Positions 12,763 through 62,680 are shown, counted from the first letter of the stretch. The stretch is DNA of 64,000 nucleotides from Candidatus Thorarchaeota archaeon (GCA_048882325.1 JBHLRS010000009.1:40901-104900); one strand, 5' to 3'. The notes: a model not told the origin generated them from the sequence alone. Translations and numbers: made by a program.

Positions 12763-12772
12763 AGACAAGAAG

Positions 12773-39018: not shown

Positions 39019-39133
39019 TGATTGACCTCCTGGTCAGGTGCAGACTGTATGCATTGGTGAGGTCGTGGGCCATGCTTCTCCTGCTTTAACCTTTCTCTCT
39101 CGGCCAAGATTGTATTACTAGAACTAAAAATCA

Positions 39134-39831
39134 GAACACGTGTTCTTCAAAGTGTTGATTCACATGACTTCGTACTTGTATCTGTATGACTGTCAACATG
39201 CTAGACGAACTAACGCAAGACGTGTAGCATTCACGAAGGAGCTCTATGGATACTATTACACTTGGAGAACAAAGTCTGGAGTCAAACAGAAACGTCGACA
39301 AGGTCTCTTAGACGAGTGTCCAGGTTCTGAAGCTGTTGCAGATTCAGCCATCCTTGTTCCTTCCGAACATCGAATAGTTTTTGATACACTGTTCAGGACG
39401 TATGATGATATTCTCAAGTTGAAGATCTTCGAGGTTGTCCAAGAGATAGAGTGATGTGTGAATCTTCGAACACGTGTTCTAATATTTATTACATGTATTA
39501 CAATTGATAATCTTCTGGATCTCACTCTTTCATTTCCACTGGAACTCTTTCTTGTGTCACTTATTTCCACTGGAACACGTGTTCTACAAACAATTGGACC
39601 CCCTTGTTTCCACTAGAGATTATTAACAACTATCTAATCGGTTAAATATCAAAAAATATATATAATCGTTTAAAGAGCTGACTTTTATCTCCATTTTTTT
39701 AATGCATAATAATACCCGCTGCAAAGATTCTCCATAAGATCTCTCGAGTGGAAGCCAAGGGGTCTTATCCAGACACTATTTTAAAGAATACAGGGACGTG
39801 ACGAGCGTAATATTCACTAGAACACGTGTTC
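39134..39831. repeat. Four perfect 12-bp palindromes GAACACGTGTTC (39134, 39468, 39573, 39820)
   Basis: Read directly from the sequence. Confidence 0.95.
39164..39454 (+). CDS. Small Cas2/VapD-like (ferredoxin-like) hypothetical protein
   Basis: YLYD...RRVAF.KELYGY...GLL...SAILVP pattern; fold assignment is inferred. Confidence 0.55.
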   Translation: MTSYLYLYDCQHARRTNARRVAFTKELYGYYYTWRTKSGVKQKRRQGLLDECPGSEAVADSAILVPSEHRIVFDTLFRTYDDILKLKIFEVVQEIE

Positions 39832-39900
39832 CAAATGTAAAAATCACTTTGTCCAGTACCACAAAACTGATACAGTTCGCATATTTCCACCCGAAATACC
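39481..39900. other. oriC: Putative replication origin: ORBs flanking an AT-rich DUE
   Basis: Minus-strand ORBs GTTCCAGTGGAAATGAAAG (39525-39545), GTTCCAGTGGAAAT (39563-39576) and CTCTAGTGGAAACAAGGGGG (39599-39618); plus-strand CTCGAGTGGAAGCCAAGGGG (39743-39762); AT-rich 39619-39720. Confidence 0.75.
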
Positions 39901-39920
39901 CATACGCGGAGGATCAGTGA

Positions 39921-41813
39921 TTGGCAAAGCCCAAGGAACTTCTTGAGGACAAACCTGGGAAGGAGATTCTTCTTCTTGCCAATGAAGCAATTGCTCGAGG
40001 TGTATTGGAAGCAGGTGTCAGACTAGTGGCACTATATCCTGGAACACCAAGTAGCGAGATTGGAAACAATCTGACACTCATGGCTCCACATATCCAGAAC
40101 TTCTACTTCGAATTTAGCACCAACGAAAAGGTTGCCTTGGAAGTGGCTGGCGCTGCCGCGGTTGCGGGTGTGAGATCCATGATGGTCTGCAAAGGTCCAG
40201 GTCTCAATGTCGCAGCTGACCCATTTTTCTCACTGGCATATGTTGGGGTCCGAGGAGGAATGGTGATTGTCGTTGCCGATGACCCAAGCATGTGGAGCTC
40301 ACAGAATGAGAACGATAGTCGATATTATGCGCTGATGGGAAATATGCCAATGATGGAACCAGCTGATCCTATTGAAGCAAAATCTATGTTACTTGAGGCT
40401 TACAAATTCTCTGAGAAGCTAGAACTTCCGGTTCTCTTTCGAACCACAACAAGAGTGAATCACACACGAGCTCCAGTGAAATTTGGCAAAATCCTCTCAC
40501 GCCCTGATAAGATTGAGTTCGAAAAGGAACCGTTCCGTTTTGTGCCAGTTCCATCTGTTGCACGCAAACGACATCCCTGGCTTTTGGGACAGATTGAGAA
40601 AGCACGTGAGCTCTCTGAGAAAAGTGCTCTGAACTTTACTGAAGGTAAGGGTGATCTTGGTATAATCACATCTGGTGTTTCCTACAATTATGTGGTCGAG
40701 GCTTTATCGACGATGGAAATCGAAGCAGAAGTCCTGAAGCTTGGAATCACCCATCCAATCCCTGAGAAGATGATGACAGAATTCCTACGCCGCCACAAGC
40801 AGGTCATGGCTGTGGAAGAGCTCGAACCAGTCCTTGAAACACACGCAAGACGCTTGGCTCATCTGAATAAACTCAATGTAGAAATTCTTGGAAAAGAACA
40901 AGGCATTTTCTCACGCACTTACGAATATAGCCCTAGGATTGTCATGGATGCTTTGAAGAAGGTTACTACACGTAATACACCTATTAACTGGGAAGAAATC
41001 GACCAGAAGACAGGTGAACTACCAGAACTACCTCCTAGACCACCACTTCTTTGTGCAGGCTGTCCTCACAGAGCAACCTATTATGCAATCCGCACAGCGA
41101 CTAGAGGAAAAGCAATCTATCCTTCTGACATTGGTTGCTATACTCTGAGTATTGCGCCTCCACTGGAAACAGCCGACATTCTCTTTGACATGGGATCCTC
41201 AATAACTACGGCATGCGGTCTTGCTGAAGTTACAGAACAGGATGTTGTAGCCACAATTGGTGATAGTACATTCTTTGCCTCAGGTCTTCCAGGTATTGCA
41301 AATGCAGTCTATAACCAGCATCGAATCTGCATAGTGATACTTGACAATCGAACCACAGCAATGACTGGTCACCAACCGCATCCAGGTACCGGGATTACAG
41401 GTATGCAGAAAGAGGTTCCACCCTTAGACATTGCGGAAGCATGCAAAGGTCTAGGTGTGAAATATGTCAAGACTGTTGAACCGTTTGAATCAATGGCAGG
41501 TCTCGTTGCTGAAGTTCGTGAGATGGTCAAATGGGTAAGAGAAAACCATAGTCCTGCAGTACTAGTTTCAATAGAACCATGTGCACTTCTTACTGCCGCG
41601 GATCGTCGACGAGCTGGGGAATTCCCACCCAAGTACTATGTCGACTCAGAGATTTGCAATGCATGCAAACGTTGTCTCAATCGTTTATCTTGTCCTGCCA
41701 TGTACATGGATCCAGAAACAGAACAGGCTGTGATTGATGAAACTCTGTGCAATCTCTGTGGAACCTGTGTTTCAGTTTGTCCACAGGGCGCAATAAAACA
41801 GGAGGATAAATGA
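39921..41813 (+). CDS. iorA: Indolepyruvate:ferredoxin oxidoreductase alpha subunit
   Basis: YPGTPSSEI, NEKVALE, LCAGCPHR, DIGCY, C-terminal 2x[4Fe-4S] motifs. Confidence 0.95.
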   Translation: MAKPKELLEDKPGKEILLLANEAIARGVLEAGVRLVALYPGTPSSEIGNNLTLMAPHIQNFYFEFSTNEKVALEVAGAAAVAGVRSMMVCKGPGLNVAADPFFSLAYVGVRGGMVIVVADDPSMWSSQNENDSRYYALMGNMPMMEPADPIEAKSMLLEAYKFSEKLELPVLFRTTTRVNHTRAPVKFGKILSRPDKIEFEKEPFRFVPVPSVARKRHPWLLGQIEKARELSEKSALNFTEGKGDLGIITSGVSYNYVVEALSTMEIEAEVLKLGITHPIPEKMMTEFLRRHKQVMAVEELEPVLETHARRLAHLNKLNVEILGKEQGIFSRTYEYSPRIVMDALKKVTTRNTPINWEEIDQKTGELPELPPRPPLLCAGCPHRATYYAIRTATRGKAIYPSDIGCYTLSIAPPLETADILFDMGSSITTACGLAEVTEQDVVATIGDSTFFASGLPGIANAVYNQHRICIVILDNRTTAMTGHQPHPGTGITGMQKEVPPLDIAEACKGLGVKYVKTVEPFESMAGLVAEVREMVKWVRENHSPAVLVSIEPCALLTAADRRRAGEFPPKYYVDSEICNACKRCLNRLSCPAMYMDPETEQAVIDETLCNLCGTCVSVCPQGAIKQEDK

Positions 41814-41814
41814 G

Positions 41815-42429
41815 ATGTCCGGTAATAATGGTAATACAATTAATATTGCGATTACTGGTGTGGGAGGCCAAGGGGTTCTGACTCTTGCTGAGATTCTAGC
41901 CAAAGCGGCACTACAGTGTGGGCTCAACGTTCGTGTTGGAGAGATTCATGGGATGGCTCAAAGAGGTGGCCATGTTGTCTGTACAGTTCGTGTGGGCAAG
42001 AACGCAAGAGGACCCATTGTAGATCCAGGTTCTGCACATCTTCTAGTTGGTTTCGAACCTGTAGAAACTCTCAGGGAGATTCAGCTAGTGAAACAAGGCG
42101 GCTGTGTTTTGATGAGTTCCCACGTCCAACATCCAGTTGCGGTTTCAATGGGACAGGCTGAGTATCCTGATCATGATGAAATAATCACGAACATGAACAA
42201 GTACACTGACAGGATTATCGAGTTTGATGCTATGGAGCTTGCAGTGAAAGCAGGCAGTACACGTGCACTTAACATGGTCATGCTAGGAGCTATCGTTGGT
42301 ACTGGTCTTGTACCAATCACAGAAAAAGCCGCAATGGATGTTGTTCGTGAGGCATTTCCAAAAAAGTTTGAGAAAATCAATACTACAGCAACTAAATTAG
42401 GCTTCGAACAGGCAAAATCGTGTAGCTAA
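41815..42429 (+). CDS. iorB: Indolepyruvate:ferredoxin oxidoreductase beta subunit
   Basis: GVGGQGVLT, EIHGMAQRGG. Confidence 0.93.
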   Translation: MSGNNGNTINIAITGVGGQGVLTLAEILAKAALQCGLNVRVGEIHGMAQRGGHVVCTVRVGKNARGPIVDPGSAHLLVGFEPVETLREIQLVKQGGCVLMSSHVQHPVAVSMGQAEYPDHDEIITNMNKYTDRIIEFDAMELAVKAGSTRALNMVMLGAIVGTGLVPITEKAAMDVVREAFPKKFEKINTTATKLGFEQAKSCS

Positions 42430-42443
42430 TACAAGTATTACAA

Positions 42444-43689
42444 CTACCAGTCAATCAGATTCCCTGCAGCAACTGCAACCTGACCAATAGAAATCCCTCC
42501 ATCACCTAGAGGAACATCTCTGTGGATAAGGGGTATGAGATCATCTCTACTGACGTGATTTACCACAGCTCGTGTGATGATTCTGTTAAGTGCAACACCA
42601 CCAGAGAAACCAACATGCTGAACCTGATTCTCTTTAGCCACCTTACACGCAATATATGCCAAAGCTTCTCCCAAGTACCACTGTGCAGCATAGGCTATCT
42701 CATGTTCGCTAACACATTGTTCCTTTAACTCATGGACCTGCATCAAACCATGTGAGGTATCCAAGTTCAGTCCATCCCTTGATTTTATGAATCTAGGCTT
42801 GATCTGTTTCTTAGTAGGTTTCGCAAAAGCCTCGAGCTTCATAGGACATTCTCTATCATAGGAATTCATTGAACTTATTCCGAGAACTATAGCTACAGCA
42901 TCAAGGAACCTTCCAGCGCTTGTACTGTTCATCACACCAATCTGACGATTGATTGAATCAATTAGAATACTCAATATGTCAGATGTAATTCGGGTATCAG
43001 GCGCGATAGGCACTGATTCAATAACTCTGAGGAGGAGGTCATTTCTCTCTAGTGAGTTACCCAAATAGCTATTCAGAATCCCAATCGCAGACCTGGCAGC
43101 AAAAACAGCAGAGAGATCTCCACTTGGATAATCTACACCTTTAAGACCGCCAACTTTCTTGAAGTCTCTTAGACCACCAATCAATACTTCTTCTCCCCAT
43201 CCGTTACTGTCCATGCCAAACCCATACTCGTCAACTGTAATACAAACAATACTTGTATCACATAGCAATTTGCGGTCCACATGCTGCACATGAGGTGAAT
43301 GGGTAACGATACCATCGTGACTTTGAGTCTGTTAAGTCATGAATACAATAAACACACATTGCAATGTCTGACTGTAAAACAGGAATCGCTCCCTCTGTTC
43401 TCTTGTCCGAAGACATCTGTATCTCGAAGAATGTGAAGGAATCCGTGACATCTGTCCAATCAACGGTCAATGAATCAATGCGCGATATTGATGGAGGATT
43501 GTTCTTTATACTTTCAATCAGATCATTGATTCCTGTTTCTTCTCCTTCTGCTACAATCTTTACTCCTGCATCATCCAAGTTGAGAACAAATCCAGTGAGT
43601 GAGAACGAATCAGCAACATTGTAGACAAATGGTCTAAATCCAACTCCTTGGACTATCCCTGCTACATGAATCTCAGCTCTTTTCCTCAC
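42444..43689 (-). pseudogene. hypF: Degraded hydrogenase maturation carbamoyltransferase HypF
   Basis: GIVQGVGFRPFVY and RYPFTSCAACGP, then a stop/frame change near 43258 and a large internal deletion; SAGRFLDA and GDGGISIGQ in the second frame. Confidence 0.8.
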
Positions 43690-43840
43690 TGGCCATGACA
43701 CCTTTGATTTTTCCGTGATCATTTCCGATATTAATTCGTTGAAGTGGCTGAACCTATCCTGTATTACAAGAAATACCAGTACCATGCCTGCTCTTTGTAG
43801 GTCCTCTTAAGGTCCATGTAGGAAAAAGGTTTGAGCTGCT

Positions 43841-44257
43841 TTGACGACTCATAGTACACGTACCCGGTCCTTGGTTAGAGAACCTGAAGTCACTCCTTCA
43901 ATACTAGCTTCAATACCAGAATGTCTTAGAGATGCTCTGAAAGAAGCAATCAGTACAAGAGGGAAAGGAAGGAAATCGGTCTTGATTTCAAGCAACAGTC
44001 TCACTAACAGGTTCATCTTCTCCAGATGGGGCATACGTCCGTCTCAACGAAGGAGATACAAGAATCTCTTTGCATCAGTGAGAAAACAGAGTCGAGTTGT
44101 GTTTCAGCATTTTCTTCTTAGAGGTCGAATTGAATGGACTGATGGTTCAGAGAAACACATCTTTGGAGTCTACAAATTCGATGAGATACGAGGAAATCTC
44201 ATTCTTGGGTTCGTGGTAATGACACCAGAGTCAGAATGGACCCTTTCTAAGCGATGA
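43841..44257 (+). CDS. Hypothetical basic protein
   Basis: 138-aa ORF, Arg/Lys-rich, no recognised family. Confidence 0.55.
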   Translation: MTTHSTRTRSLVREPEVTPSILASIPECLRDALKEAISTRGKGRKSVLISSNSLTNRFIFSRWGIRPSQRRRYKNLFASVRKQSRVVFQHFLLRGRIEWTDGSEKHIFGVYKFDEIRGNLILGFVVMTPESEWTLSKR

Positions 44258-44453
44258 TCCATACCAAACTGAAAGCTACATAAGCCTCCACTACTCTCGT
44301 CTGTATACAAAACTGTATCCACCCATTGATACTTCTTGGGAGTATTAGAAAAAGGCGTTATAACGCTTTATTTTCGATTTAAACGATGAATAGGACTGAT
44401 ACAGAGAATGGTCAAACACACACAGAAACCACAATTGAAAATGGTGAATTGAC

Positions 44454-45002
44454 TTGGGACCTGAGAACACTAAACAAGTTGGAGAAAAAACACGTATGAA
44501 ACAGTTGACATCTGGAGCTCGACAGGTACTGAAAGAACCAATTCTGAAGAAGCTCCAAGAAGGTTCAGTACTGAGCGAGGCACAGATAGAAACATTGCTC
44601 ATTGATTTAGTGGTAGAGGATGGATATGGGGTCCATATCACATATGAGGACAAAGCCGCATATCGGTCAAGACAAGGGAGTAGATCTCGAGGTGTTTCAA
44701 GAGGAGCATTCAATAGAACTCTGAAACAAGCCAGACGAAATCTGTCTCGTTGTCTTTACACTATGTTACTTCTCGCATACTTGGGTCTCTTTGAACTCAC
44801 AATATTCCGACCATTCGAAGAGGTTGCAGCTCGGATAGGTGACTATCGAAGAATCCGTGACATTCTTGCTGGAAAGACTGAGTTGACTACAGAAGAACTG
44901 GAGAGTGTCAGAACGACTGAACGAATTATCATGTCAGCACTAGATGAATTATCATCCTCACTTGCACTGAAATCTGAGATATCAAAGAAGAAGTCGGACT
45001 GA
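44454..45002 (+). CDS. Hypothetical HTH-like DNA-binding protein
   Basis: LSEAQIETL...VSRGAFNRTLKQARRN resembles a sigma-4/Tfx-type HTH. Confidence 0.6.
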   Translation: MGPENTKQVGEKTRMKQLTSGARQVLKEPILKKLQEGSVLSEAQIETLLIDLVVEDGYGVHITYEDKAAYRSRQGSRSRGVSRGAFNRTLKQARRNLSRCLYTMLLLAYLGLFELTIFRPFEEVAARIGDYRRIRDILAGKTELTTEELESVRTTERIIMSALDELSSSLALKSEISKKKSD

Positions 45003-45020
45003 TCGGATAAAGAAAAGAAA

Positions 45021-45196
45021 ATGGCTCGAGCGTGTCGCACCGGAAGGATTCCGACGCAATTTGAGCACAGTCGTTCTCCAGCACTCAAGCAACCATTAGG
45101 TCATCCTGGAGGTTTGTTTGAGGAGATAGAGATGACAATGACGAGCGCCTGAAACGTCGGAGAGATGTGTCCAGTCGACGTCGGCCTTCTTGCCAT
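45021..45196. ncRNA. Candidate structured RNA (long irregular hairpin, about 175 nt)
   Basis: ATGGC/GCCAT ends, TCCGACG/CGTCGGA and CTCCAG/CTGGAG stems; adjacent poly-T on the minus strand. Confidence 0.35.
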
Positions 45197-45395
45197 TGTA
45201 CGACACACTCATATTTTACATGGTAACAATGATACATAGTTCTAATCTTAGAACGAACTTTTTACCAGATTTTTCTTCGAAATTTGGCGCGTTTGATACA
45301 TGTAATACAACGAATACAATTCTCAATATCCCACGAAACCTTAACCGTAATCACATATGCACTAACACAATATACAGCTACAGAAGTGATTTTAC

Positions 45396-46649
45396 TTGAC
45401 TGACGAGAATACCCGCGATAGGATTTTCAGAGCAGTCAAGGAACGCATCAAGGAAACCGATGAGCAAGACAGAATACAGATGATAACCAACGCAATTGGG
45501 GATCGACGATATAGAGACCTTGTTGACATCGTTGCAAGGATTGAGGGTGAAAGTGACTGGCCCACAGCACTTGAGTATCTGATGAAGGCACAAGATAAGA
45601 AGTATTCCTCACCTATGACTATTGGTCAAGACAAGACAAGTTTGGAAGCGCTGAAATATAGGGAGATGATATTCGAGCTGCTATCCTGTCGCGGATTAGA
45701 GCCTGTCCCAATATCAATGACCAATCTTCTCACAAGCTTGAAAAACGAACCTTCACTTGTTGCTGCATCACGAGTTCTTTTGACCAAGCTAGAAGAAATG
45801 ACTATAAAGCAGATTGAAGCTGGCGATACCCTGTTCTTTGATTTCTCTGAGAACGTATCTATTTCTCAAGAAGTTGTAAACCTACTAGATCAAACTAGAA
45901 AAGAGAACATCCAAAACATCTCCATAAATCAAAACGGAAATCTATTCAATGTGGCTCCTCTCTGGCACAGTGAGTATGGTCGGCTTGCCATGTCTAATCT
46001 GGGGATTAAGGGGAATATTGTGGATTCCGACACATTCGATAGTGTATTATCAGTATTACAAGTATCCTCTATCATCAAAACAAGAACCGTGAACGTTCCT
46101 CTGCCTAGGAACATGAATGAGGATTCGTGGACTCGTCCCACAAACCAATCCTATAGAAAACTTCACTCTCATCTGATACATCATGAAGTGAACGACCTGA
46201 AGCTCTCGGCAAGCCGACACTCGATACCACTACTCAATGCACTTCTCAACGAAGCACTATCCACTTACGATAATGAATCATCCACTAACAAGTATAGGAA
46301 CATACTCGATTATATCAATGCACACATCTCGGTTCGTGACATAGAATCCCTACTTGCTTTGGAGAAAGCATCACGAATGAAGAACGTACGTATCGCAACT
46401 GCAGCAATCCTAGCTATTGGCAATTTTTATAATGAATCATCAGTCGCAACGCTGTTGAACCTCTTTTGTGCTGGAAGAGATGATGCGATAATTCAATCAA
46501 CTTCAAAAGCTATTGAGAATGTGTACAAGAAATGTCCAGAAGCAGATCATGCAATTTCCATTTCAGTGGATTCTGAATGCAGAAACCGTGGTACACTAAA
46601 GAAACTCTACAGACGTCTTAGCAAGGAAAAACCAGTGTATTACCGGTAG
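45396..46649 (+). CDS. Hypothetical alpha-helical protein with HEAT-like C-terminus
   Basis: 417-aa ORF; IATAAILAIGNF HEAT-like segment. Confidence 0.6.
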   Translation: MTDENTRDRIFRAVKERIKETDEQDRIQMITNAIGDRRYRDLVDIVARIEGESDWPTALEYLMKAQDKKYSSPMTIGQDKTSLEALKYREMIFELLSCRGLEPVPISMTNLLTSLKNEPSLVAASRVLLTKLEEMTIKQIEAGDTLFFDFSENVSISQEVVNLLDQTRKENIQNISINQNGNLFNVAPLWHSEYGRLAMSNLGIKGNIVDSDTFDSVLSVLQVSSIIKTRTVNVPLPRNMNEDSWTRPTNQSYRKLHSHLIHHEVNDLKLSASRHSIPLLNALLNEALSTYDNESSTNKYRNILDYINAHISVRDIESLLALEKASRMKNVRIATAAILAIGNFYNESSVATLLNLFCAGRDDAIIQSTSKAIENVYKKCPEADHAISISVDSECRNRGTLKKLYRRLSKEKPVYYR

Positions 46650-46708
46650 TACATAGAATACTGACCCTGACGACAGACATAAATCACACTCACTTCTGGC
46701 GTGAACCC

Positions 46709-48094
46709 ATGAAGAGTTCTGAGACCAAGCTAATCAAGAGCATGGATTCTTTCTTCAACCCAAAACGTGTTGCTCTTGTTGGTGCGTCTACAGACTACAG
46801 AAAACTTGGCAATTCAATACTGATGAATCTGCTAGCATCTGAGATAGAAGTGTATCCAGTAACTCGGAGTAGAGACCGTGTACTCGGAGTACAAGCTTAC
46901 AAAAGTCTCGCTGATCTACCAGAACCTGTTGATTTAGTCATCGTGGCTGTCGCTGCAAAGTACTGTTCTTCACTTATGCCTGAAATTAGAAAAGCCGGAG
47001 CAAGAAACGCAGTAGTGATTTCTGGTGGATTCAGTGAGGCTGGTCCCGATGGAGCTGAATTAGAACAAAGTCTTGTGAAGTCCGCCCAAGATGCAGGAGT
47101 ACGAATAATCGGCCCTAACTGTGTAGGCGTTTCCAACACCCGCTTGTTCAATGGCACATTTACGATGATGCCAGAACGAGGTAATATTGCATTTGTTTCC
47201 CAAAGTGGTGCTCTTGGTGGGATGCTTATTTACACAACTAGCGCTAAGAGGATTGGGATGAGTAAATTTGCTAGTATAGGTAATTCTGCAGACGTCGGTT
47301 TTGTTGAAATTCTTGACTATTTTAGAGAGGACCCAAAATCATCAGTCATTGCAGCCTATGTTGAAGGTGTTGATGAGGGCCGGGCACTGTTCCAGTCTTT
47401 ACATAATGCAGCGAAAGTGAAACCTGTGGTTTTATTGAAAGGTGGAAGGAGTGAGGCTGGTGGTCGTGCCGCATTATCACACACTGGATCTCTAGCTGGA
47501 TCTACGAAGATGTTTGAAGGAATGATACGGCAAGCTGGGTGTGTTAATGCCCCGACTTTAGATACCCTCTTTGAAATCTGTAAGCTTTTTGATTATCAAC
47601 CGCTACCAAAGGGGAACCGCATTGGTATTATTAGTAATACAGGTGGAGCAGGAGTTCTTGCTACCGATGCAGCAGCTGAGCTTGGCCTTGAAATTACAAC
47701 TCTCTCAAATAACACAAAAGAAGAACTTCGCCAAGTATTACCTCCAATGGCCTCAACCAACAATCCAATTGATATTGTCGCAAGTGGCGGTAGGAGAGAA
47801 TACAGAATAGCAACCGAACTCCTGTTAAGAGACACCAATGTTGACGTACTCCTCGTCATTTGTGCAGTTCCAACATTTGCAGGAATGACACAGACTGAAC
47901 ACGCAGCAGGAACTCTGGAAGGTGTTCGATCTGCCTCGATGAACAAACCAGTTGTAGGTGTTTGGCTAGCTGGAGATGTAGGTAAACCAGGAAAGGATCT
48001 TCTTGAAATGAATCGAATACCATGCTACGACGACCCAGCTGAAGCGGCACTTTGTATATCACGAGTAGTTGAGTATTCTGAAATGCATCGTTAG
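46709..48094 (+). CDS. acdA: ADP-forming acetate/acyl-CoA ligase alpha subunit
   Basis: IIGPNCVG, SQSGA, SHTGSLAG, NPID. Confidence 0.9.
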   Translation: MKSSETKLIKSMDSFFNPKRVALVGASTDYRKLGNSILMNLLASEIEVYPVTRSRDRVLGVQAYKSLADLPEPVDLVIVAVAAKYCSSLMPEIRKAGARNAVVISGGFSEAGPDGAELEQSLVKSAQDAGVRIIGPNCVGVSNTRLFNGTFTMMPERGNIAFVSQSGALGGMLIYTTSAKRIGMSKFASIGNSADVGFVEILDYFREDPKSSVIAAYVEGVDEGRALFQSLHNAAKVKPVVLLKGGRSEAGGRAALSHTGSLAGSTKMFEGMIRQAGCVNAPTLDTLFEICKLFDYQPLPKGNRIGIISNTGGAGVLATDAAAELGLEITTLSNNTKEELRQVLPPMASTNNPIDIVASGGRREYRIATELLLRDTNVDVLLVICAVPTFAGMTQTEHAAGTLEGVRSASMNKPVVGVWLAGDVGKPGKDLLEMNRIPCYDDPAEAALCISRVVEYSEMHR

Positions 48095-48148
48095 GCTAAT
48101 ACTATCTATACTCACTTGTATCCTAATACCAGTATTACAAGTGATAAT

Positions 48149-48451
48149 CTACTGCGATTCAAGATATTCCTCTGCGATTTGCGGAAATTCTTGTGCAACT
48201 GCTTCACGAAGCTGCTTTTCTACCCACATACTCAGGTTGATTGCCTTTGACTTTCTGATGGCTTTCAGGCAAGCTCTGAGGTCGGTTGGAATTGAGAAAG
48301 AAACGATTGGGCTCTTACGTTCCTTGTTTGGAACAGATATCAGCTCACTGTGTCTTTCTATTGGAACAGTTTCCCTAGTTGTCATCCGAGTCGGTTTATC
48401 CTCTCCGTCTTCTTTTTCCGCTTCTTTTCTATACTTTCCAAGTAGACTCAT
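48149..48451 (-). CDS. Ribbon-helix-helix DNA-binding protein with charged N-terminal tail
   Basis: PIVSFSIPTDLRACLKAI...INLSMWVEKQLREA; GGAGG upstream of ATG 48451; abuts the ATPase gene. Confidence 0.65.
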   Translation of the reverse strand: MSLLGKYRKEAEKEDGEDKPTRMTTRETVPIERHSELISVPNKERKSPIVSFSIPTDLRACLKAIRKSKAINLSMWVEKQLREAVAQEFPQIAEEYLESQ

Positions 48452-48452
48452 G

Positions 48453-49427
48453 TCATTGTACCTCCTTGAGTAGCGTTGCGTATGCTTCCGAAACAAGTTC
48501 AGCAATGTCCTTGGTCACTTCTGGACTTCCAGCGTTTCTAAAATTCTCAGCTGCTACTTGTTGACATCCGCGGGCAAGCATTCTAATATCACGTGGATTT
48601 CCTTTTGCTGCGGTATTGATTACCCTCACCGCATCATCACTAAAGGGGTATATTTCAAAGTCATTAGGATTGAATCCATCAATCCGGCCTTGTGCATATG
48701 CAATCCGACGTCCTATGAATTCCCTTGCCTTCGCGTCATTAAGTGGTGGAACATCGAGTGGCTCAGTACGATCTGCAATCTGCGGCAGAAATGAAAGCAT
48801 TGCATTCCAGTATATCAGAGTTCCAGACATGACCAAGGTAAAAATCGGTTCATCAAGAGCTCCCGAATATGCATCAATCATTTCCTCAGTCGGTAGGTCC
48901 GCAAGGAATCTCAACTTGTGAAAAGCTGCTTCTTGATTGTCAGCAACATCTTCAATGAACAGTGCTGTTCGACTTTGTTCTTCAAGATATCTTCGAAGAC
49001 TTTCTTTCGCAACTGCATCAATAATCTGGCTAGACTCCCATGACCTTCTGTATTTTATTCTGAGGGAATCAGCAATTGCAGAAGCCATTTGTTTCTCATA
49101 GAGACCAGTCATTCCAACATAGCCAGTGATGAATTTGTTGCCCTTACGATCCGCCAACGTAGGCAAATCTCTTAGTGCCAACAGCATCAACGTGCTCTTG
49201 CCTGAGCCTACGGGTCCTCGAATGAAGACATGACGTTCATTCGTAATAATCAAGTCAACAATGGAATCCAAAAAGTCACTGTCCTCTATGTACAAGCGAC
49301 TGTCTGGCATCTTGAAGCCACGAAAAGGTGAGAATCTAGCACCAATCTTTTCTTCCCACGCCCGGAGAACTTCCTTACGTGTATTGAAGTGACGAATCAA
49401 TGCACTCTCATGAATTGCAATTGTCAT
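48453..49427 (-). CDS. AAA+ ATPase (ExeA/Cdc6-like clade)
   Basis: GPVGSGKST, LFIED, IADR, YPFSDDAV, KGNPRDI; GGAGG upstream of ATG 49427. Confidence 0.8.
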   Translation of the reverse strand: MTIAIHESALIRHFNTRKEVLRAWEEKIGARFSPFRGFKMPDSRLYIEDSDFLDSIVDLIITNERHVFIRGPVGSGKSTLMLLALRDLPTLADRKGNKFITGYVGMTGLYEKQMASAIADSLRIKYRRSWESSQIIDAVAKESLRRYLEEQSRTALFIEDVADNQEAAFHKLRFLADLPTEEMIDAYSGALDEPIFTLVMSGTLIYWNAMLSFLPQIADRTEPLDVPPLNDAKAREFIGRRIAYAQGRIDGFNPNDFEIYPFSDDAVRVINTAAKGNPRDIRMLARGCQQVAAENFRNAGSPEVTKDIAELVSEAYATLLKEVQ

Positions 49428-49596
49428 CTTGTGGACCTCCAAAGATGTGGTATCACAAGTACTTCTTGTAATACAATTTTGAAACTGTAGTTGAGGATAT
49501 AAAATGTATGGTAAATCTTGTCTATCAGACACAACCTTTTTGAAGAGAATGTACTGGCTGGAAGTTCAATCCACAGCTTTACAGGAGTCATTTAGT

Positions 49597-49875
49597 ATGG
49601 ATGTAGATCGAATCAAGCATATCATGAACTCTCTGATGATTCTCTCCTTTCTCATCTTTGGTGCTCTCTCAGGAATCATACTGATAACAGATGTCCGACT
49701 AACTGCTACATCCGTTTCTCTACCTTTTGCTTTCCTGTATCTTTCTCTAGCCACCTTCATAATCACAGCTCAAATCGAAGAGCGTCCGAAACTGATACAT
49801 AAATATCTCCGCGACTGGTTGGTAATCTGTCTAATCGGAATCATCATCAGTGCATTAGCCTTCACAATCTACTGA
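49597..49875 (+). CDS. Small membrane protein (3 TM)
   Basis: Three hydrophobic segments. Confidence 0.6.
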   Translation: MDVDRIKHIMNSLMILSFLIFGALSGIILITDVRLTATSVSLPFAFLYLSLATFIITAQIEERPKLIHKYLRDWLVICLIGIIISALAFTIY

Positions 49876-49942
49876 TACAGAACACAAGAGTTTAGAACTG
49901 CTATGATGTACACCACGCTACCCCTCTAACGAAGTGAAAACC

Positions 49943-50578
49943 ATGAGTAAGATTCTCCCTGGCACAAAGACCACTCGCATGGAACTACTCGCACTGAAGA
50001 ATAGAATGCGGCTAGCTGAGAGGGGGCATGATCTTCTGCGAGAGAAACGAGACTCACTCATTATGGAGTTCTTTAATGCTATTGCAGAAATAAAAGAAGC
50101 CAGAGAAAAAGTTGATGCTGCACTTAATGAAGCATTCTCAGCACTCACCCAAGCAAAGATGGTAATGGGCCCAGCAAGAGTAGTCGAGTTCGCATATGCA
50201 AGTAGATTCGAGGCAAATCTTAGTATCTCAACCAGATCAATGATGGGAGTTAGAGTGCCAGTCCTGTCAGTGGAGCAACACACCCCTGACCTTCCCTACT
50301 CACTCTCAGACTCAAGCGCAAAATTTGATGTCATGAGTGAGAAGTTCAAGGAAGCACTGAACGCCATTGTTCGTCTGGCTGAGATTGAGTCTACAGTGAA
50401 ACGTCTCGCACTTGAAATTGAGCGTACAAAGCGGCGAGTGTCTGCCTTAGAAACAGTGGTAATTCCTCGACTTGATGCAACTGCTCGTTTCGTAAAGCTA
50501 GCACTCGAAGAACGTGAACGTGAGGACTTTGTTAGACTGAAGATGGTCCGTGATTGGATTACTGCTGAAGAAGAATGA
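49943..50578 (+). CDS. atpD: A/V-type ATP synthase subunit D
   Basis: TRMELL, RGHDLLREKRD, EIERTKRRV.ALE..VIP, LEEREREDF.RLK. Confidence 0.95.
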   Translation: MSKILPGTKTTRMELLALKNRMRLAERGHDLLREKRDSLIMEFFNAIAEIKEAREKVDAALNEAFSALTQAKMVMGPARVVEFAYASRFEANLSISTRSMMGVRVPVLSVEQHTPDLPYSLSDSSAKFDVMSEKFKEALNAIVRLAEIESTVKRLALEIERTKRRVSALETVVIPRLDATARFVKLALEEREREDFVRLKMVRDWITAEEE

Positions 50579-50606
50579 CCGAACGTATTATTTGTAATAC
50601 AAATAA

Positions 50607-50993
50607 TTAGCGTCTGAGTTTGAGGATTGCAGCAGCCAAGTCGCCTTCGGTCTCTTCCAAGGCCTGCTTAGCCACTTGAATGTCAACACCTGTTTGACTA
50701 GCAACCAAAGCTGCATCTTCCATTGGAACTTCGACCTTCTTCTCAACTTCAGGAACTGTTTCAGTTTTAGTTTCAGTACTACCTGAAGGACCTCGTTCAG
50801 TCTTTGTTCCTGCTACCTGATATGACTCACTACCACCTTGTTTGATCATCGTAACCTGAGCATTAGAGATGACCCACTCTTTGTCTGCGAAGCGGAAAAT
50901 CACTTCTTTCACACCTTCAATCTCTTTCTGCTCTATACCCATCTTCTTCATCATTCGAGCCATCTGTTTTGGCGACATTCCTCTAAATCCCAT
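50607..50993 (-). CDS. nac: Nascent polypeptide-associated complex protein
   Basis: MSPKQMARMMKKMGI; C-terminal UBA-like LVASQTGV...GDLAAAIL. Confidence 0.93.
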   Translation of the reverse strand: MGFRGMSPKQMARMMKKMGIEQKEIEGVKEVIFRFADKEWVISNAQVTMIKQGGSESYQVAGTKTERGPSGSTETKTETVPEVEKKVEVPMEDAALVASQTGVDIQVAKQALEETEGDLAAAILKLRR

Positions 50994-51080
50994 ACTGACC
51001 AGTTCCGTTTCTCATCAGATAGTGCAGGTTGTTCCTTTACACGTTTTCCACACCTGCTGAATCTACAATGGATAAAACGA

Positions 51081-51920
51081 TTACGATTCGGATGTAACAA
51101 TGATGTCAAACACATAATGACCCATTCCTGGAGAATAGTTCTTGACAAGTCTGACATCAATAGCAGACTCATATCCGCGGTCCTTGGACGTACTTTTGAT
51201 TTCAGTTATGATAGTTGCTAGCCTAGTTTCTGGGGCGTTCATATGCATATGGATAACCCCCCCTTCTTCAACCAAGGTGTCGAGAGCAAAAGGAAGATAC
51301 TCGATTGTATCATGTAGATATCCCATGACAACCCGATTAGCCTCTTTCTTTGGATGAACTTCCCGGCAATCTCCAAGTATCGCTTTCACACTTTGAGTAA
51401 AACCATTCAAGGTGATATTCTCAAGTAGGAATTGGTATGCATCTTGATTAATCTCAATCGCAGTGACCTCAACCTCAGCTGCTTTCGCAATGTGAAGAGC
51501 AAATTGACCTACGCAAGAGAACATATCCACAACTTTCTCTCCATCATTGACCAGATCTGATAGACGTATTCTCTCTCTCCTGTTACCTCCTGAGAATGTT
51601 AGACGAAGTGGATCAAGGCGAAACTTGATTCCTCTCTCAACATGTGTAGTAATTGTATTACTATTCCCAGCAACCAGCTCATACGAAGGTAATCTTGTTG
51701 CACCTGCAGTGGGACCCGTTCTCACAGCGACTGACTGAATACGTGGATCGAATTCCAGGGTCTTCTCACCAATAACTGAAACATATTTCATTGTGTTAAA
51801 ATCTAGATGTAGTAGGGCAACATATCCTACGAGATGAAAACCTGAAGGTAACACAATTTCATTGGGAACTATACCATCTAATTCACGTCTGAGGAAATCT
51901 CTATACCTCATTGTTTTCAC
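51081..51920 (-). CDS. Trm5/Taw2(TYW2)-family SAM-dependent tRNA-modifying enzyme
   Basis: FSGGNRRER, VVDMFSCVGQF, ANRVVMGY, VKNYSPG. Confidence 0.85.
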   Translation of the reverse strand: MKTMRYRDFLRRELDGIVPNEIVLPSGFHLVGYVALLHLDFNTMKYVSVIGEKTLEFDPRIQSVAVRTGPTAGATRLPSYELVAGNSNTITTHVERGIKFRLDPLRLTFSGGNRRERIRLSDLVNDGEKVVDMFSCVGQFALHIAKAAEVEVTAIEINQDAYQFLLENITLNGFTQSVKAILGDCREVHPKKEANRVVMGYLHDTIEYLPFALDTLVEEGGVIHMHMNAPETRLATIITEIKSTSKDRGYESAIDVRLVKNYSPGMGHYVFDIIVTSES

Positions 51921-57090: not shown

Positions 57091-58440
57091 TTGAGTCTTG
57101 ACAACTCGGGATACAGTGGTCTGGTTCTAGAGAAGCTCACTAGTGCCAATATCAAAACTGGTGATGAGATTCGTATTACAAGTAATGGGAATGAATATAC
57201 AGGAGTCCTCATGCCTCGAAGTCAAGTTGGCAGTGATCCATTTCATATTATCATAAAACTTGATACTGGATATAATATTGGTATCAAGCTGAACCAAGAC
57301 TCCGCAATTCGTAGAACCAAGTCAGGAAAGAAGAAACAACCTACCCCATCAGAAGAATCCTCATTCACGAAAGGTATGCCTACAGTTTCAATCCTAAGTA
57401 CAGGCGGAACAATTGCCAGCAAGGTAGATTATCAAACTGGGGCTGTCAATCCTGCATTAACTGCCCAGGATCTCTATGATACTGTTCCAGAACTCAAAAA
57501 CTATGCCAATGTCCGCGCAAAAGTAATCATGAGCGTGCTGTCGGAGAATATTCAACCAAATGACTGGAGTAAAATCGCTCGAAATGTAGCTTCTGAGATA
57601 AAAACCGGAACAGATGGAGTTGTAATCGCGCATGGAACGGATACACTCGGGTCCACCTCTGCAGCGTTGTCATTTGCCCTCCAGAATCTTCCAGTCCCTG
57701 TGGTTCTAGTAGGGTCACAGAGGTCATCGGATCGTCCATCATCTGACGCAGCAATGAATCTGATAGGTGCAATTAATCTAGCAGCAAAAGCTGATGCTGC
57801 AGAAGTTTATGTCATAATGCATGCAGAGTCTGGAGACACTCATCTTCATGCTCATCGTGGAACGCGTACTCGCAAGTTACATACAAGCCGTCGTGATGCT
57901 TTCCAGTCAGTCAATGATTATCCAGTATATCGTATAGTTGGTGAAGATGTGGAAGAGCTACATCAACCACTGTTACGAAGAGATGCAGAGAGGAAATTAA
58001 TTCTGAAACCTAAATTCGAAGAGAAAGTAGCCCTTGTGAAAACAAATCCGGGTGTCGACGCTCCACTCATCGACTATTATGTAGACGCTGGTTTCAGAGG
58101 AATCGTGATTGAGGGTACGGGTCTAGGACACGCTCCCAATCGTCTTCATTCGTCAATTAACACGGCGGTTGATGCAGGTCTCATTGTGACCATGACTAGC
58201 CAGTGTTTGTTCGGACGTGTAGACATGAATGTCTATCGTTCAGGTGTTGAGCTTCTTGATATTGGGGTGGTTCCCTGCGAGGACATGTTTCCAGAAACAG
58301 CTTTGGTGAAACTCATGTGGGTTTTAGCAAACAGCAAGGATCAAGAAGCTGCAAAAGAACTTCTTCTGAAACCTCTCGCTGGCGAGATTGATATGCGTAG
58401 TGAAGAAGCCGAGTATGTATCACGTCCAGGAGGAAACTGA
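57091..58440 (+). CDS. gatD: Glu-tRNA(Gln) amidotransferase subunit D
   Basis: KLDTGYNIG, TGGTIAS, HGTDT, GSQRSSDRPSSD. Confidence 0.96.
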   Translation: MSLDNSGYSGLVLEKLTSANIKTGDEIRITSNGNEYTGVLMPRSQVGSDPFHIIIKLDTGYNIGIKLNQDSAIRRTKSGKKKQPTPSEESSFTKGMPTVSILSTGGTIASKVDYQTGAVNPALTAQDLYDTVPELKNYANVRAKVIMSVLSENIQPNDWSKIARNVASEIKTGTDGVVIAHGTDTLGSTSAALSFALQNLPVPVVLVGSQRSSDRPSSDAAMNLIGAINLAAKADAAEVYVIMHAESGDTHLHAHRGTRTRKLHTSRRDAFQSVNDYPVYRIVGEDVEELHQPLLRRDAERKLILKPKFEEKVALVKTNPGVDAPLIDYYVDAGFRGIVIEGTGLGHAPNRLHSSINTAVDAGLIVTMTSQCLFGRVDMNVYRSGVELLDIGVVPCEDMFPETALVKLMWVLANSKDQEAAKELLLKPLAGEIDMRSEEAEYVSRPGGN

Positions 58441-60358: not shown

Positions 60359-60439
60359 ATATTCGATGACTAAGGATAAGGTTAATTAGAGCTACCCAGT
60401 GTGCACGTTCGCCAGACTTCGATAATGGGTACTAAGCGT

Positions 60440-60609
60440 GCCGCAGTGGCCTAGCCTGGTTAGGGCGCGAGACTCATAATCTGACTGGAATTCCCAGTCT
60501 AAATTACGGGGTCAGTTCTCGGCCCGACCTCAGATGAGGCATCTCGAAGTCGTGGGCTCGAAGCTATGCCACATTGCGTGGTATAGACAGTTTCCCACCT
60601 GCGGCACCA
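60440..60609 (+). tRNA. Elongator tRNA-Met(CAT) with two introns (37/38: 60479-60540; T-loop about 59/60: 60563-60592)
   Basis: GCCGCAG/CTGCGGC acceptor stem, CGAGA-CT-CAT arm, BHB CTCA/TGAG; second hairpin insert in the T loop; CCA encoded. Confidence 0.85.
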
Positions 60610-60622
60610 GCCCTCTAGTCAG

Positions 60623-61984: not shown

Positions 61985-62104
61985 CTTAATCCATTAACAA
62001 TAGTTAATATTCCTTTTATTAATCATTCCTTCAAACCACGAGTCATCTCGACCTTTCGATTTTTACCATGACGGGATTATTAGGCAAAGAACAGACTTAA
62101 CGCC

Positions 62105-62317
62105 ATGAAGAAAGAAAAGTGGAAATTGGTAGGTGGCCGCGTCTATAGATTAGCAGACATCTTTGACAACATGTATGACGCGGCTCAAAGAGCCAAAGAG
62201 CTGAAGGAAAGCAATCGCGTGTTTCTATCAAAAGTTGGTCAAAGCCGATGGGCTGTGTATTACAGACCCAAAGATCCCAAAGTTGAATGTACTCCTAAAC
62301 ACTACAATGTTGCATGA
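62105..62317 (+). CDS. Small hypothetical protein
   Basis: 70-aa ORF in its own intergenic space. Confidence 0.55.
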   Translation: MKKEKWKLVGGRVYRLADIFDNMYDAAQRAKELKESNRVFLSKVGQSRWAVYYRPKDPKVECTPKHYNVA

Positions 62318-62368
62318 CTAGACTCAACCTCTATTGGTGCTTAATAGAGCCCATTCACACATAGAAGC

Positions 62369-62680
62369 ATGCCAATTGACTCAATTCTCGCGGAAGCTGA
62401 TGATGATAATAGGAGAATCCGAGTGGAATCTTTGGGTAGAATTGTCAGTAAACTTCAACGTCCGCATTTTGAGAAACTTATTCGCGAATCTATCAAATCA
62501 GGTGTTGTAGACATCACGGACTGGACAATAGAAGCTCTACGAGCATTATTGAAAGTCTGTGCTGAAGAAGACCTTAGAGTCTCACTGAAGGATGGCACAC
62601 GTTACTTCATGCCAGTCAGATATCCAAAAGGCCCAATGCTAGAATCTCTCGCAAATGCCATTGCGTCCGGTGAATGGTGA
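62369..62680 (+). CDS. Hypothetical protein
   Basis: 103-aa ORF. Confidence 0.6.
   Translation: MPIDSILAEADDDNRRIRVESLGRIVSKLQRPHFEKLIRESIKSGVVDITDWTIEALRALLKVCAEEDLRVSLKDGTRYFMPVRYPKGPMLESLANAIASGEW

What the first reader, a model, noticed from the sequence alone, without database searches (positions are those of the whole stretch)
39111..51662. AAA+ ATPase, RHH protein and clustered TGTAWTACA palindromes: candidate new origin-proximal partition system
Seen: a tightly coupled operon, ATPase (48453-49427) then RHH protein with a charged flexible N-terminal tail (48149-48451), flanked by sites at 49467 and 48131. Perfect TGTAWTACA occurs at 39494 (origin edge), 43236, 43760, 45301, 49467 and 50593, with more GTAWTAC cores at 39112, 41831, 42435, 46053, 46637, 47634, 47735, 48132 and 51655: about 15 cores in 13 kb against 2-3 expected by a rough estimate. 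I noticed none in the first 39 kb, but the scan was not exhaustive. Some sites lie between convergent genes or inside genes, which fits centromere-like sites better than promoters. Known: NTPase + RHH adaptor + repeats is the layout of ParFG, ParMR and SegAB systems, but those use ParA or actin-like motors. Inference: the same logic with an ExeA/Cdc6-like AAA+ motor.
Basis: partly seen in the sequence, partly recalled or inferred. Interest (0 to 1): 0.85.

Follow-up and report, generated by a model that had tools for sequence, protein, structure and literature searches.

The report
Origin-side repeat field with ORC-like ATPase
Next to a predicted replication origin, this Asgard (Thorarchaeota) chromosome carries its only field of short phased DNA boxes, wrapped around a conserved operon for an ORC/Cdc6-like ATPase and a small tailed DNA-binding protein; the layout matches a DNA-partition cassette with a motor type never described for that job, but no function has been tested.

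Summary
GTAWTAC boxes, each flanked by weaker copies 9 bp to either side, form 15 composite sites at 39112-51661. A matrix built only from relatives puts 14 of the 15 best hits in the 3.6-Mb genome there.

- **Conservation:** the field recurs at matching positions across Thorarchaeota. In a closed 2.58-Mb relative, 7 of 8 perfect 9-mers lie in one 13-kb stretch. Boxes are conserved 71% of the time against 16% for other 7-mers.
- **Boundaries:** the field runs from an ORB-DUE-ORB origin-like region to about 2 kb past the ATPase/RHH operon. One site overlies the operon promoter.
- **ATPase:** it folds like Orc1/Cdc6, TnsC and MuB but has no winged helix.
- **Small protein:** it is RHH-like with a conserved N-terminal helix.
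- **Other lineages:** the pair is single-copy in six Asgard families. One of them uses a different genome-unique repeat (GATATC), which tracks a different RHH strand.
- **Plasmids:** homologous cassettes flanked by iterons sit beside orc1/cdc6 on archaeal plasmids that lack ParA.

My best reading is a partition-like or origin-handling nucleoprotein system (about 0.5). Function is untested. I found no paper describing it. This scan has noted the same system before on other genomes.

The parts
39112..51661 (.). Field of 15 composite binding sites. Each is a strong palindromic heptad GTAWTAC with weaker heptads 9 bp to either side. Mean spacing is 896 bp.
   Evidence: 14 of the top 15 genome-wide matrix hits lie here. 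Spacing is more regular than random (minimum gap 383 bp, CV 0.40, P about 1e-4 to 6e-4).
39112..39118 (.). Site 1 core, upstream of the divergent AlaDH-like gene and orf104.
   Evidence: Matrix score 16.9. Conserved in 5 of 6 relatives.
39495..39501 (.). Site 2 core (perfect 9-mer), at the edge of the ORB cluster.
   Evidence: Score 23.5. Conserved in 3 of 3 aligned relatives.
40972..40978 (.). Site 3 core, inside iorA.
   Evidence: Score 20.5. Conserved in 6 of 6.
41831..41837 (.). Site 4 core, 16 nt into iorB.
   Evidence: Score 23.2. Conserved in 4 of 5.
42435..42441 (.). Site 5 core, in the convergent gap between iorB and hypF.
   Evidence: Score 20.2. Conserved in 4 of 5.
43237..43243 (.). 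Site 6 core (perfect 9-mer), at the junction of the two hypF fragments.
   Evidence: Score 18.3. Conserved in 3 of 3.
43761..43767 (.). Site 7 core (perfect 9-mer), at the 5' end of hypF and upstream of orf138.
   Evidence: Score 18.7. Conserved in 4 of 4.
45302..45308 (.). Site 8 core (perfect 9-mer), 94 nt upstream of orf417.
   Evidence: Score 21.8. Conserved in 3 of 3.
46053..46059 (.). Site 9 core, inside orf417.
   Evidence: Score 19.6. Conserved in 1 of 3.
46637..46643 (.). Site 10 core, at the end of orf417 and 72 nt upstream of acs.
   Evidence: Score 15.4. Conserved in 1 of 4, with near-matches in the others.
47634..47640 (.). Site 11 core, inside acs.
   Evidence: Score 18.2. Conserved in 6 of 6, although protein constraint may contribute.
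48132..48138 (.). Site 12 core, in the convergent gap just after the RHH gene stop.
   Evidence: Score 22.0. Relatives carry ATATTAC or GTACTAC here.
49468..49474 (.). Site 13 core (perfect 9-mer). A three-heptad operator between a TTTTATAT box (49506-49499) and the ATPase ATG (49427).
   Evidence: Score 22.8. Conserved in 6 of 6. In all relatives a 9-mer lies 38-48 bp upstream of the ATPase start.
50594..50600 (.). Site 14 core (perfect 9-mer), in the convergent gap between atpD and nac.
   Evidence: Score 24.3. Conserved in 5 of 6.
51655..51661 (.). Site 15 core, inside trm5/taw2. This is the last strong site.
   Evidence: Score 19.5. Conserved in 3 of 6.
48453..49427 (-). AAA+ ATPase of 324 aa, ORC/Cdc6-ExeA-TnsC-like, with no winged helix. 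Motifs: Walker A GPVGSGKST, Walker B FIED (order swapped), sensor 1 SGT, IADR, sensor 2 GNPRDIRML.
   Evidence: 87-97% identical within the genus. Single copy.
48149..48451 (-). Tailed RHH-like protein of 100 aa. It has an N-terminal helix MSLLGKYRK (Lys6 invariant), a disordered acidic/basic linker, and then strand-helix-helix.
44454..45002 (+). orf182, a third co-conserved gene with an HTH of sigma70-r4/DUF134 type (weak evidence). It lies in one operon with the pair in Frey- and Odinarchaeia.
39455..39900 (.). Origin-like region. ORB cores lie at 39533-39545 and 39564-39576. ORBs with G-strings lie at 39597-39619 (-) and 39743-39763 (+), flanking an AT-rich tract at about 39620-39720.
57173..63998 (.). 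Five weaker outlying GTATTAC cores at 57173, 58669, 62257, 63244 and 63992, running to the contig end.
   Evidence: 57173 scores 15.4 and 58669 scores 13.5; the other three were below the 11.0 cut-off of the list printed.

Best explanation
This is a partition-type (centromere-like) nucleoprotein system built from non-ParA parts. In the steps below, only step 1 and the general architecture are shown by the sequence data; steps 2-6 are inferred.

1. **The field (shown):** 15 composite sites form a single, genome-unique field of about 12.5 kb that starts at the ORB/DUE origin-like region.
2. **Binding (inferred):** dimers of the tailed RHH protein bind the palindromic GTAWTAC heptads. The 9-bp phasing lets about three dimers sit side by side on each site.
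3. **Autoregulation (inferred):** the site over the operon promoter gives autorepression.
4. **Tail contact (inferred):** the conserved N-terminal helix of the RHH protein (SLLGKYRK, Lys6 invariant) contacts the ATPase.
5. **ATPase action (inferred):** the ATPase has no sequence-specific DNA-binding domain. It would bind DNA non-specifically and oligomerise in its ATP form, as its fold relatives TnsC and MuB do. The RHH tails would then switch it.
6. **Outcome (inferred):** the origin-flanking DNA, or a plasmid, is compacted and positioned for inheritance.
For: 1. **Uniqueness:** the field is unique in the genome and far above chance.
2. **One field per chromosome:** closed relative G031 has 7 of 8 perfect 9-mers within 1,794,377-1,807,389. 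Nine other Thor genomes and loci of several genera show the same pattern.
3. **Selection on the boxes:** 71% are conserved against 16% for other 7-mers, including boxes inside genes and in convergent gaps.
4. **Spacing:** it is more regular than random.
5. **Cassette anatomy:** an NTPase gene is followed by a tailed RHH gene, with one site over the promoter in every relative.
   - In a Heimdall/Gerd lineage, 12 heptads flank the operon within 2.1 kb: upstream of it, between the two genes, and in a 700-bp array after it.
6. **Motif tracks the RHH strand:** lineages with an IVSFSIP-type strand use GTAWTAC. Those with NFNVRxP (f7, f19) use GATATC in 12-13-bp tandems.
   - In closed genome G058, 8 of the 9 such tandems lie around the operon.
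   - The rival binder orf182 keeps a nearly invariant helix across these lineages.
7. **The tail is a portable module:** it is triplicated on a KaiC-like protein placed after an ATPase homologue.
8. **Plasmid homologues:** cassettes with hhalign probability 98% sit beside orc1/cdc6 on pNG100, pMETEV01 and a Natrinema plasmid.
   - On pNG100, cassette-specific iterons lie in the same three positions.
   - Neither of the two plasmids tested has a ParA-type gene.
9. **Strong constraint:** the ATPase is among the most conserved local genes, on a par with atpD.
Against: - No experiment exists.
- ORC/Cdc6-clade AAA+ proteins are known as loaders and target selectors, not as partition motors.
- The genome also has five ParA/MinD-superfamily matches elsewhere, so a classical motor is not lacking.
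- The family was not found in most Asgard families sampled: 0 of 25 in f9 and 0 of 13 in f5.
- In Freyarchaeia, G024 has only operator-scale repeats beside the operon and no GTAWTAC field; whether it has a GATATC field was not tested.
- A position next to a rep gene fits replication control as well as partition.
- Whether the ORB region is an active origin is not confirmed in Thorarchaeota.
- The identity of the binding protein rests on covariation alone.
Confidence: 0.5

Rival explanations
1. This is an origin-control or origin-organising device rather than a segregation machine. The RHH protein recruits the ORC-like ATPase to the flank of oriC. There it could regulate initiation (for example by titrating or blocking Orc1/Cdc6 or MCM loading, or by setting copy number on plasmids), or it could build a private chromatin domain beside the origin, much as MatP-matS does for the E. 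coli Ter domain.
For: - The closest folds are the Orc1/Cdc6 initiators.
- The operon lies within 1-10 kb of ORB elements or cdc6 in Thor, Frey, Odin, f19, Heimdall/Gerd and the P0132 lineage.
- In closed Odin genome G020, the gene-orientation switch expected of an origin falls at 602-637 kb. That is exactly where the ORB pair (622.7 kb) and the operon (628 kb) lie.
- On plasmids the cassette abuts the orc1/cdc6 rep gene.
- The field is one-sided and stops at the ORB region.
- MatP appears among the RHH fold hits.
Against: - The protein lacks the winged-helix domain that defines Orc1/Cdc6, and two bona fide cdc6 genes exist elsewhere on the contig.
- The arrangement of NTPase, tailed binder and iterons on both sides of the operon is the signature of partition cassettes.
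- A 12-kb field of evenly spaced sites is not needed for simple initiation control.
- Large ParA-less plasmids need some means of stable inheritance.
Confidence: 0.27
2. The RHH protein is an ordinary local transcription repressor. The boxes are operators of a small regulon made up of its own operon and neighbouring metabolic genes, and the ATPase has an unrelated job.
For: - One site overlies the likely transcription start of the operon.
- About five sites lie within 100 nt upstream of gene starts.
- The single strong site outside the field lies in a divergent promoter (LysE/DUF389) at C7:55107.
Against: - Three conserved sites lie in convergent gaps with no promoter, and about six lie inside genes.
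- Spacing is regular.
- The field keeps the same boundaries across genera while covering functionally unrelated genes.
- The ATPase and RHH genes are translationally coupled everywhere.
Confidence: 0.08
3. The boxes are bound not by the RHH protein but by the co-conserved orf182 HTH-like protein or by another factor. The RHH protein would then only autoregulate the operon.
For: - orf182 is single-copy and lies 3-5 kb from the ATPase in 53 of 59 Thor-family genomes.
- It is in the same operon as the pair in Frey- and Odinarchaeia.
- G024 has an NFNVR-type RHH protein yet still carries three GTAWTAC boxes upstream of the operon.
Against: - The orf182 helix is nearly invariant while the repeat changes between lineages.
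- Palindromic heptads in tight tandem fit the way RHH dimers pack. This rests on established knowledge of MetJ, omega and ParG.
- The plasmid cassettes consist of the ATPase gene and the small gene only.
Confidence: 0.2
4. The pair is a domesticated remnant of a mobile element or a defence module, with a TniB/TnsC/MuB-like target selector, and the boxes are relics of element ends.
For: Fold hits to TnsC and MuB. JGI labels the protein ExeA.
Against: - No transposase or integrase lies in the conserved neighbourhood.
- Synteny with housekeeping genes is stable across a whole family.
- The gene is single-copy and very highly conserved.
- The boxes are under selection inside genes.
Confidence: 0.03

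Closest known systems
Archaeal SegAB with segS (Sulfolobales; PMC12139799, PMC7617429) and HpaAB of Haloferax volcanii pHV3 (bioRxiv 10.1101/2025.11.19.689047)
   Same: A two-gene operon in which an NTPase gene is followed by a small RHH site-binder. The binder's N-terminal part deals with the NTPase. Repeated sites lie next to the operon, with more sites elsewhere.
   Different: SegA and HpaA are ParA-type deviant-Walker ATPases. Here the NTPase is an ORC/Cdc6-ExeA-clade AAA+. The sites form one dense field of 12-13 kb that ends at an origin-like region. There is no detectable sequence similarity to SegB or HpaB.
Type Ib plasmid partition cassettes (ParF-ParG of TP228; delta-omega of pSM19035)
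   Same: A small tailed RHH centromere-binding protein that also autoregulates. Short tandem repeats are bound by adjacent dimers (omega uses 7-bp heptads). Repeats flank the operon. Plasmid homologues sit beside the rep gene.
   Different: The motor fold is unrelated. The chromosomal version spreads its sites over 12 kb, including sites inside genes.
Orc1/Cdc6 initiators (for example 1w5t, 2qby, 1fnn)
   Same: These are the best structural matches for the AAA+ and lid domains. The GxPR-type sensor 2 is shared, and the gene lies near an origin.
   Different: There is no C-terminal winged-helix domain (324 aa). Sequence identity is 12-15%. DNA specificity would come from a separate RHH protein.
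MuB and TnsC (transposition target selectors; 8xvb, 7m99, 7plh)
   Same: Same AAA+ clade by fold. These are ATP-dependent, non-specific DNA-binding oligomers whose ATPase is triggered by a partner protein. That is a possible working model for this ATPase.
   Different: No transposase or element ends are present. The context is housekeeping, single-copy and origin-linked.
MatP-matS of E. coli
   Same: An RHH-containing protein with palindromic sites confined to one chromosomal domain (fold hit).
   Different: matS sites span 800 kb at the terminus and involve no ATPase partner. Here the domain is 12 kb and lies beside an origin-like region.

Membership tests
ParA-type (type I) partition systems, including SegAB and HpaAB | The motor is a deviant-Walker-A ParA/MinD-fold ATPase. 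| tested here: not met
   Pfam gives only sub-threshold AAA_16, NB-ARC and AAA_22 hits. Foldseek's best hits are Orc1/Cdc6, TnsC and MuB.
ParA-type (type I) partition systems, including SegAB and HpaAB | A small centromere-binding protein (RHH or HTH) is encoded downstream of the NTPase gene. | tested here: met
   The genes are 1 nt apart. The model shows strand-helix-helix. All the weak PDB hits are RHH proteins, and 2 of 11 family members hit Pfam RHH_1.
ParA-type (type I) partition systems, including SegAB and HpaAB | Repeated centromere sites lie adjacent to the operon, including at its promoter. | tested here: met
ParA-type (type I) partition systems, including SegAB and HpaAB | The system stabilises or segregates its replicon. 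| not testable with these tools
   This needs genetics or imaging.
Orc1/Cdc6 initiators | An AAA+ initiator-clade fold with a lid domain. | tested here: met
   1w5t, 2qby and 1fnn at E 1e-9 to 2e-8, with TM 0.47-0.53 normalised by the query.
Orc1/Cdc6 initiators | A C-terminal winged-helix DNA-binding domain (PF09079). | tested here: not met
   The protein ends after the lid domain. In this genome PF09079 matches two other genes above its cut-off plus one weak sub-threshold hit, and not this gene.
ExeA/GspA (type II secretion) | An AAA_22 domain plus a C-terminal peptidoglycan-binding region, in an ExeB/secretin context. | tested here: not met
   AAA_22 scores 21.4 bits, below the 27-bit cut-off. 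The protein has no C-terminal extension. The profile search shows a gap from 1e-73 (full-length members) to 1e-24 and below for generic ExeA-like proteins. The context is archaeal and origin-linked.
TnsC/TniB/MuB transposition ATPases | Encoded next to a transposase, within an element bounded by end repeats. | tested here: not met
   The conserved neighbourhood consists of PAN, trm5, nac, atpD, acs, hypF and iorAB.
Ribbon-helix-helix superfamily | An N-terminal strand followed by two helices that forms an intertwined dimer. | tested here: inconclusive
   The monomer model has an extended segment at 45-55 and helices at 56-69 and 73-88, with pLDDT about 90. Fold and HMM hits are all RHH proteins but are statistically weak. 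The dimer was not modelled.

The most novel reading that the evidence does not exclude
This is a further class of DNA-segregation machine whose NTPase is an ORC/Cdc6-family AAA+ protein that is switched by a tailed RHH centromere-binder. It would be used both by chromosomes of several Asgard lineages, as a 12-kb centromere-like field abutting oriC, and by euryarchaeal plasmids that lack ParA. That would tie origin-recognition-type ATPases to centromere-like function in the closest archaeal relatives of eukaryotes.
Probability: 0.4. Interest if true: 0.92.

Novelty: new variant of a known kind. Interest (0 to 1): 0.85.

Why it matters
How Asgard archaea segregate and organise their chromosomes is unknown. 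Reviews only note that they have ParA and ParB homologues (PMC7617429).

This finding gives a concrete, conserved and testable candidate. It has defined DNA sites, a defined binder and a defined ATPase, and the genome-unique field marks one locus per chromosome.

If the system partitions DNA, it adds a motor class to the known ParA, actin-like and tubulin-like ones. The homologous plasmid cassettes are in cultured hosts: Haloarcula marismortui pNG100, a Natrinema plasmid and Methanohalobium pMETEV01. The question can therefore be tested directly in culturable, and probably tractable, hosts.

If the system instead controls the origin, it would be a new ORC-like accessory in the lineage nearest to eukaryotes.

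Tried and rejected
- **Complex prediction:** the ATPase with RHH residues 1-45 gave no verdict (score 0.01). This is not evidence either way.
- **Thor ATPase against PLSDB plasmids:** tblastn found no match. Only more distant family members (P0132, P0140) reached the plasmid homologues.
- **Skew in closed Thor genome G031:**
  - Coarse sampling suggested a + to - switch near 1.65 Mb and a minimum near cdc6-1 at 0.65-0.78 Mb.
  - Full coverage of 1.55-1.95 Mb showed only noise, with a local cumulative GC-skew maximum at the field.
  - I judge this uninformative.
  - No ORB cluster lies beside cdc6-1 in G031.
- **Unbiased k-mer enrichment in L019, L020 and G019:** it returned only codon-like words. 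The lineage motifs were found by restricting the search to palindromes.
- **GTAWTAC in other families:** there is no field in G024, only three boxes at the operon. There is none in G058.
- **L022's record:** it is not held for whole-record search.
- **Odin orf182:** I first thought the Odin homologue lacked its HTH. Translation showed the frame is open across it, with no canonical start codon, so I dropped that idea.
- **ParA-ParB in the same slot:** I could not test it, because the class-level sample held only f1 and f2.
- **Integrated element:** I rejected the idea that the 39-kb boundary marks an integrated element. Composition is flat and the genes are housekeeping.

Full report
**Context.** The window is G000:C9:40901-104900 of a 3.6-Mb, 89-contig assembly, and it ends at a contig end. 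Gene content is archaeal: NAC, TFE, PAN and A-type ATPase subunit D. Close homologues are named Thorarchaeota, so this is an Asgard archaeon.

**Observation.**
- GTAWTAC occurs 21 times in the window against 3.5 expected. All copies lie at or beyond 39112.
- The genome holds 13 perfect TGTAWTACA 9-mers, and 8 of them are here.
- Aligning the sites shows a composite of three heptads phased at 9 bp: a strong palindromic centre with weaker copies on each side. The same pattern appears in 134 sites from relatives.
- A 25-bp matrix built only from those relatives places 14 of the 15 best hits in the whole genome at 39112-51655. The exception is C7:55107, in an ordinary divergent promoter.
The five cores beyond 57 kb are weaker.

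**Conservation.**
- In six same-genus genomes the 9-mers again cluster in 12-15 kb around the ATPase gene. One always lies 38-48 bp upstream of its start codon.
- Sites sit at matching positions although overall DNA identity is only 70-80%.
- Boxes are retained in 54 of 76 aligned cases (71%), against 15.8% for all other 7-mers in the same alignments.
- Other Thor genera show the same field with the same limits, from the PAN/trm5 boundary to the origin palindromes.
- In the closed 2.58-Mb genome G031, 7 of 8 perfect 9-mers lie in 1,794,377-1,807,389.
- Site spacing in the window is more regular than random: minimum gap 383 bp, mean 896 bp, CV 0.40, P about 1e-4 to 6e-4.
- About five sites are promoter-proximal, three lie in convergent gaps, and about six lie inside genes.

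**The genes.**
- *ATPase (48453-49427, minus strand).*
  - It has Walker A GPVGSGKST, a swapped Walker B (FIED), sensor 1 SGT, IADR, and sensor 2 GNPRDIRML.
  - Its model has pLDDT 85. It matches archaeal Orc1/Cdc6 best, then eukaryotic Cdc6/ORC, TnsC and MuB. It has no winged helix.
  - It is one of the best-conserved genes locally, at 87-97% identity within the genus.
- *RHH gene (48149-48451).*
  - It starts 1 nt after the ATPase stop.
  - Its product has an N-terminal helix (MSLLGKYRK, Lys6 invariant across 11 diverse members), a disordered charged linker, and a strand-helix-helix domain.
  - All the weak HMM and fold hits are RHH proteins.
- *The promoter site.* The box at 49467 lies between a TATA-like element and the ATG. 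That is where an archaeal repressor would sit.

**Family range.**
- A profile search of 1.8 billion representative proteins finds only about six full-length 50%-identity clusters before generic ExeA-like proteins begin.
- Named members are Thor-, Heimdall/Gerd-, Frey- and Odinarchaeia.
- Among 151 Asgard genomes the gene is single-copy in six families. It was not found in the others sampled.
- A tailed RHH-like gene follows it in the chromosomal lineages examined. The exception is the L024 lineage, where a small RHH-like gene precedes it.
- A third gene, orf182, has an HTH of DUF134/sigma70-r4 type, on weak evidence. It is co-conserved and shares the operon in Frey- and Odinarchaeia.

**Lineage-specific repeats.**
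- A Heimdall/Gerd contig has 12 GTAWTAC heptads within 2.1 kb: upstream of the ATPase, between the two genes, and in tandem arrays after the RHH gene.
- Families f7 and f19 have a different RHH strand (NFNVRxP). They instead carry GATATC in 12-13-bp tandems at the same three positions.
- In closed genome G058, 8 of the 9 such tandems lie within 11.4 kb around the operon.
- The repeat therefore changes with the RHH strand while the orf182 helix barely changes. This favours the RHH protein as the binder. G024 complicates the picture, because it carries both kinds of box.
- In one lineage the N-terminal peptide is triplicated on a KaiC-like protein placed after the ATPase homologue. That suggests the peptide is a portable handle for the ATPase.

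**Origin.**
- The region 39455-39900 has canonical ORB cores and two G-string ORBs inverted around an AT-rich tract. It holds the genome's only pair of the ORB core TTCCACTGGAA.
- ORBs or cdc6 lie within 1-10 kb of the operon in six lineages.
- In closed Odin genome G020, the gene-orientation switch expected of an origin coincides with the ORB pair and the operon.
- In closed Thor genome G031, skew is uninformative.
- Two cdc6 genes lie 18 and 63 kb away on this contig.
- "Origin-proximal" is therefore well supported by sequence architecture but is not proven for Thorarchaeota.

**Plasmids.**
- Homologous ATPase genes (hhalign probability 98%) with a small tailed partner lie directly beside orc1/cdc6 on H. 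marismortui pNG100, M. evestigatum pMETEV01 and a Natrinema plasmid.
- A Haladaptatus plasmid carries the same pair beside an unnamed ATP-binding gene.
- On pNG100 the 10-mer TTAAGAYTAR occurs only four times, all at the cassette edges and between its two genes.
- Six-frame searches find no ParA/MinD-type gene on pNG100 or pMETEV01.

**Reading.**
- The anatomy is that of a partition cassette with a non-ParA motor. The closest described systems are SegAB, HpaAB, ParFG and delta-omega.
- Membership in the ParA-type family fails on the motor. Membership in Orc1/Cdc6 fails on the winged helix.
- I put partition-like function at about 0.5 and origin control or organisation at about 0.27.
- Points against partition:
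  - there is no experiment;
  - ParA-superfamily genes exist elsewhere in the genome;
  - the family's distribution across Asgard is patchy.
- Three literature searches found no description of such a system.
- Other windows of this scan have reported the same system.

Noticed in passing
window 39134-39831: Four of the genome's eight exact GAACACGTGTTC palindromes bracket orf104 and the ORBs. Similar palindromes, together with an orf104 homologue, lie beside ORBs in Freyarchaeia (L019 11735, 12439, 12458; gene 12469-12825). An orf104-like gene also sits near the ORB in G058 and G096. This looks like a second, separate origin-associated factor and site.
   Followed up: partly
window 42444-43785: hypF is in two pieces here: 175 aa (acylphosphatase plus one zinc finger) and 281 aa (Kae1-like C-terminal part). 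The YrdC-like middle is missing. Other Thor genera and other Asgard lineages have an intact gene of 772-788 aa. One repeat box lies at the junction (43237).
   Followed up: partly
window 44454-45002: orf182 is a conserved HTH-like protein of unknown function. It is single-copy in 53 of 59 Thor-family genomes and travels with the ATPase/RHH pair across Asgard families. It may be a third component of the system.
   Followed up: partly
L024 486-2472: In one metagenomic lineage the order is RHH (66 aa), then the AAA+ ATPase, then a KaiC-like protein. The N-terminus of the KaiC-like protein carries three copies of the (S)VLSKY(R/K)K peptide that heads the RHH protein elsewhere.
   Followed up: partly
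G000:C7:55107 (L018 6107): The single best-scoring composite site in the genome lies outside the field. It sits in the divergent promoter between a LysE-type exporter gene and a DUF389 gene.
   Followed up: partly
window 48940-48960 (ATPase Walker B): Walker B reads FIED in Thorarchaeota (order swapped), IDD in Freyarchaeia and the canonical IDE in Odinarchaeia. This may mean slow, switch-like hydrolysis.
   Followed up: no
window 19858-21099 and G000:C9 about 16.4-17.7 kb: Both Orc1/Cdc6 genes of the genome lie on this contig, 18 kb and 63 kb from the ORB region, and neither is adjacent to it. In closed relative G031 one is 25 kb from the ORB region and the other is 1 Mb away.
   Followed up: partly
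L020 11307-11867 (Odinarchaeia): The orf182 homologue has an open frame of about 185 codons, but there is no ATG, GTG or TTG in its first 110 or so codons. It may use a non-canonical start codon after an AGGAGG.
   Followed up: no
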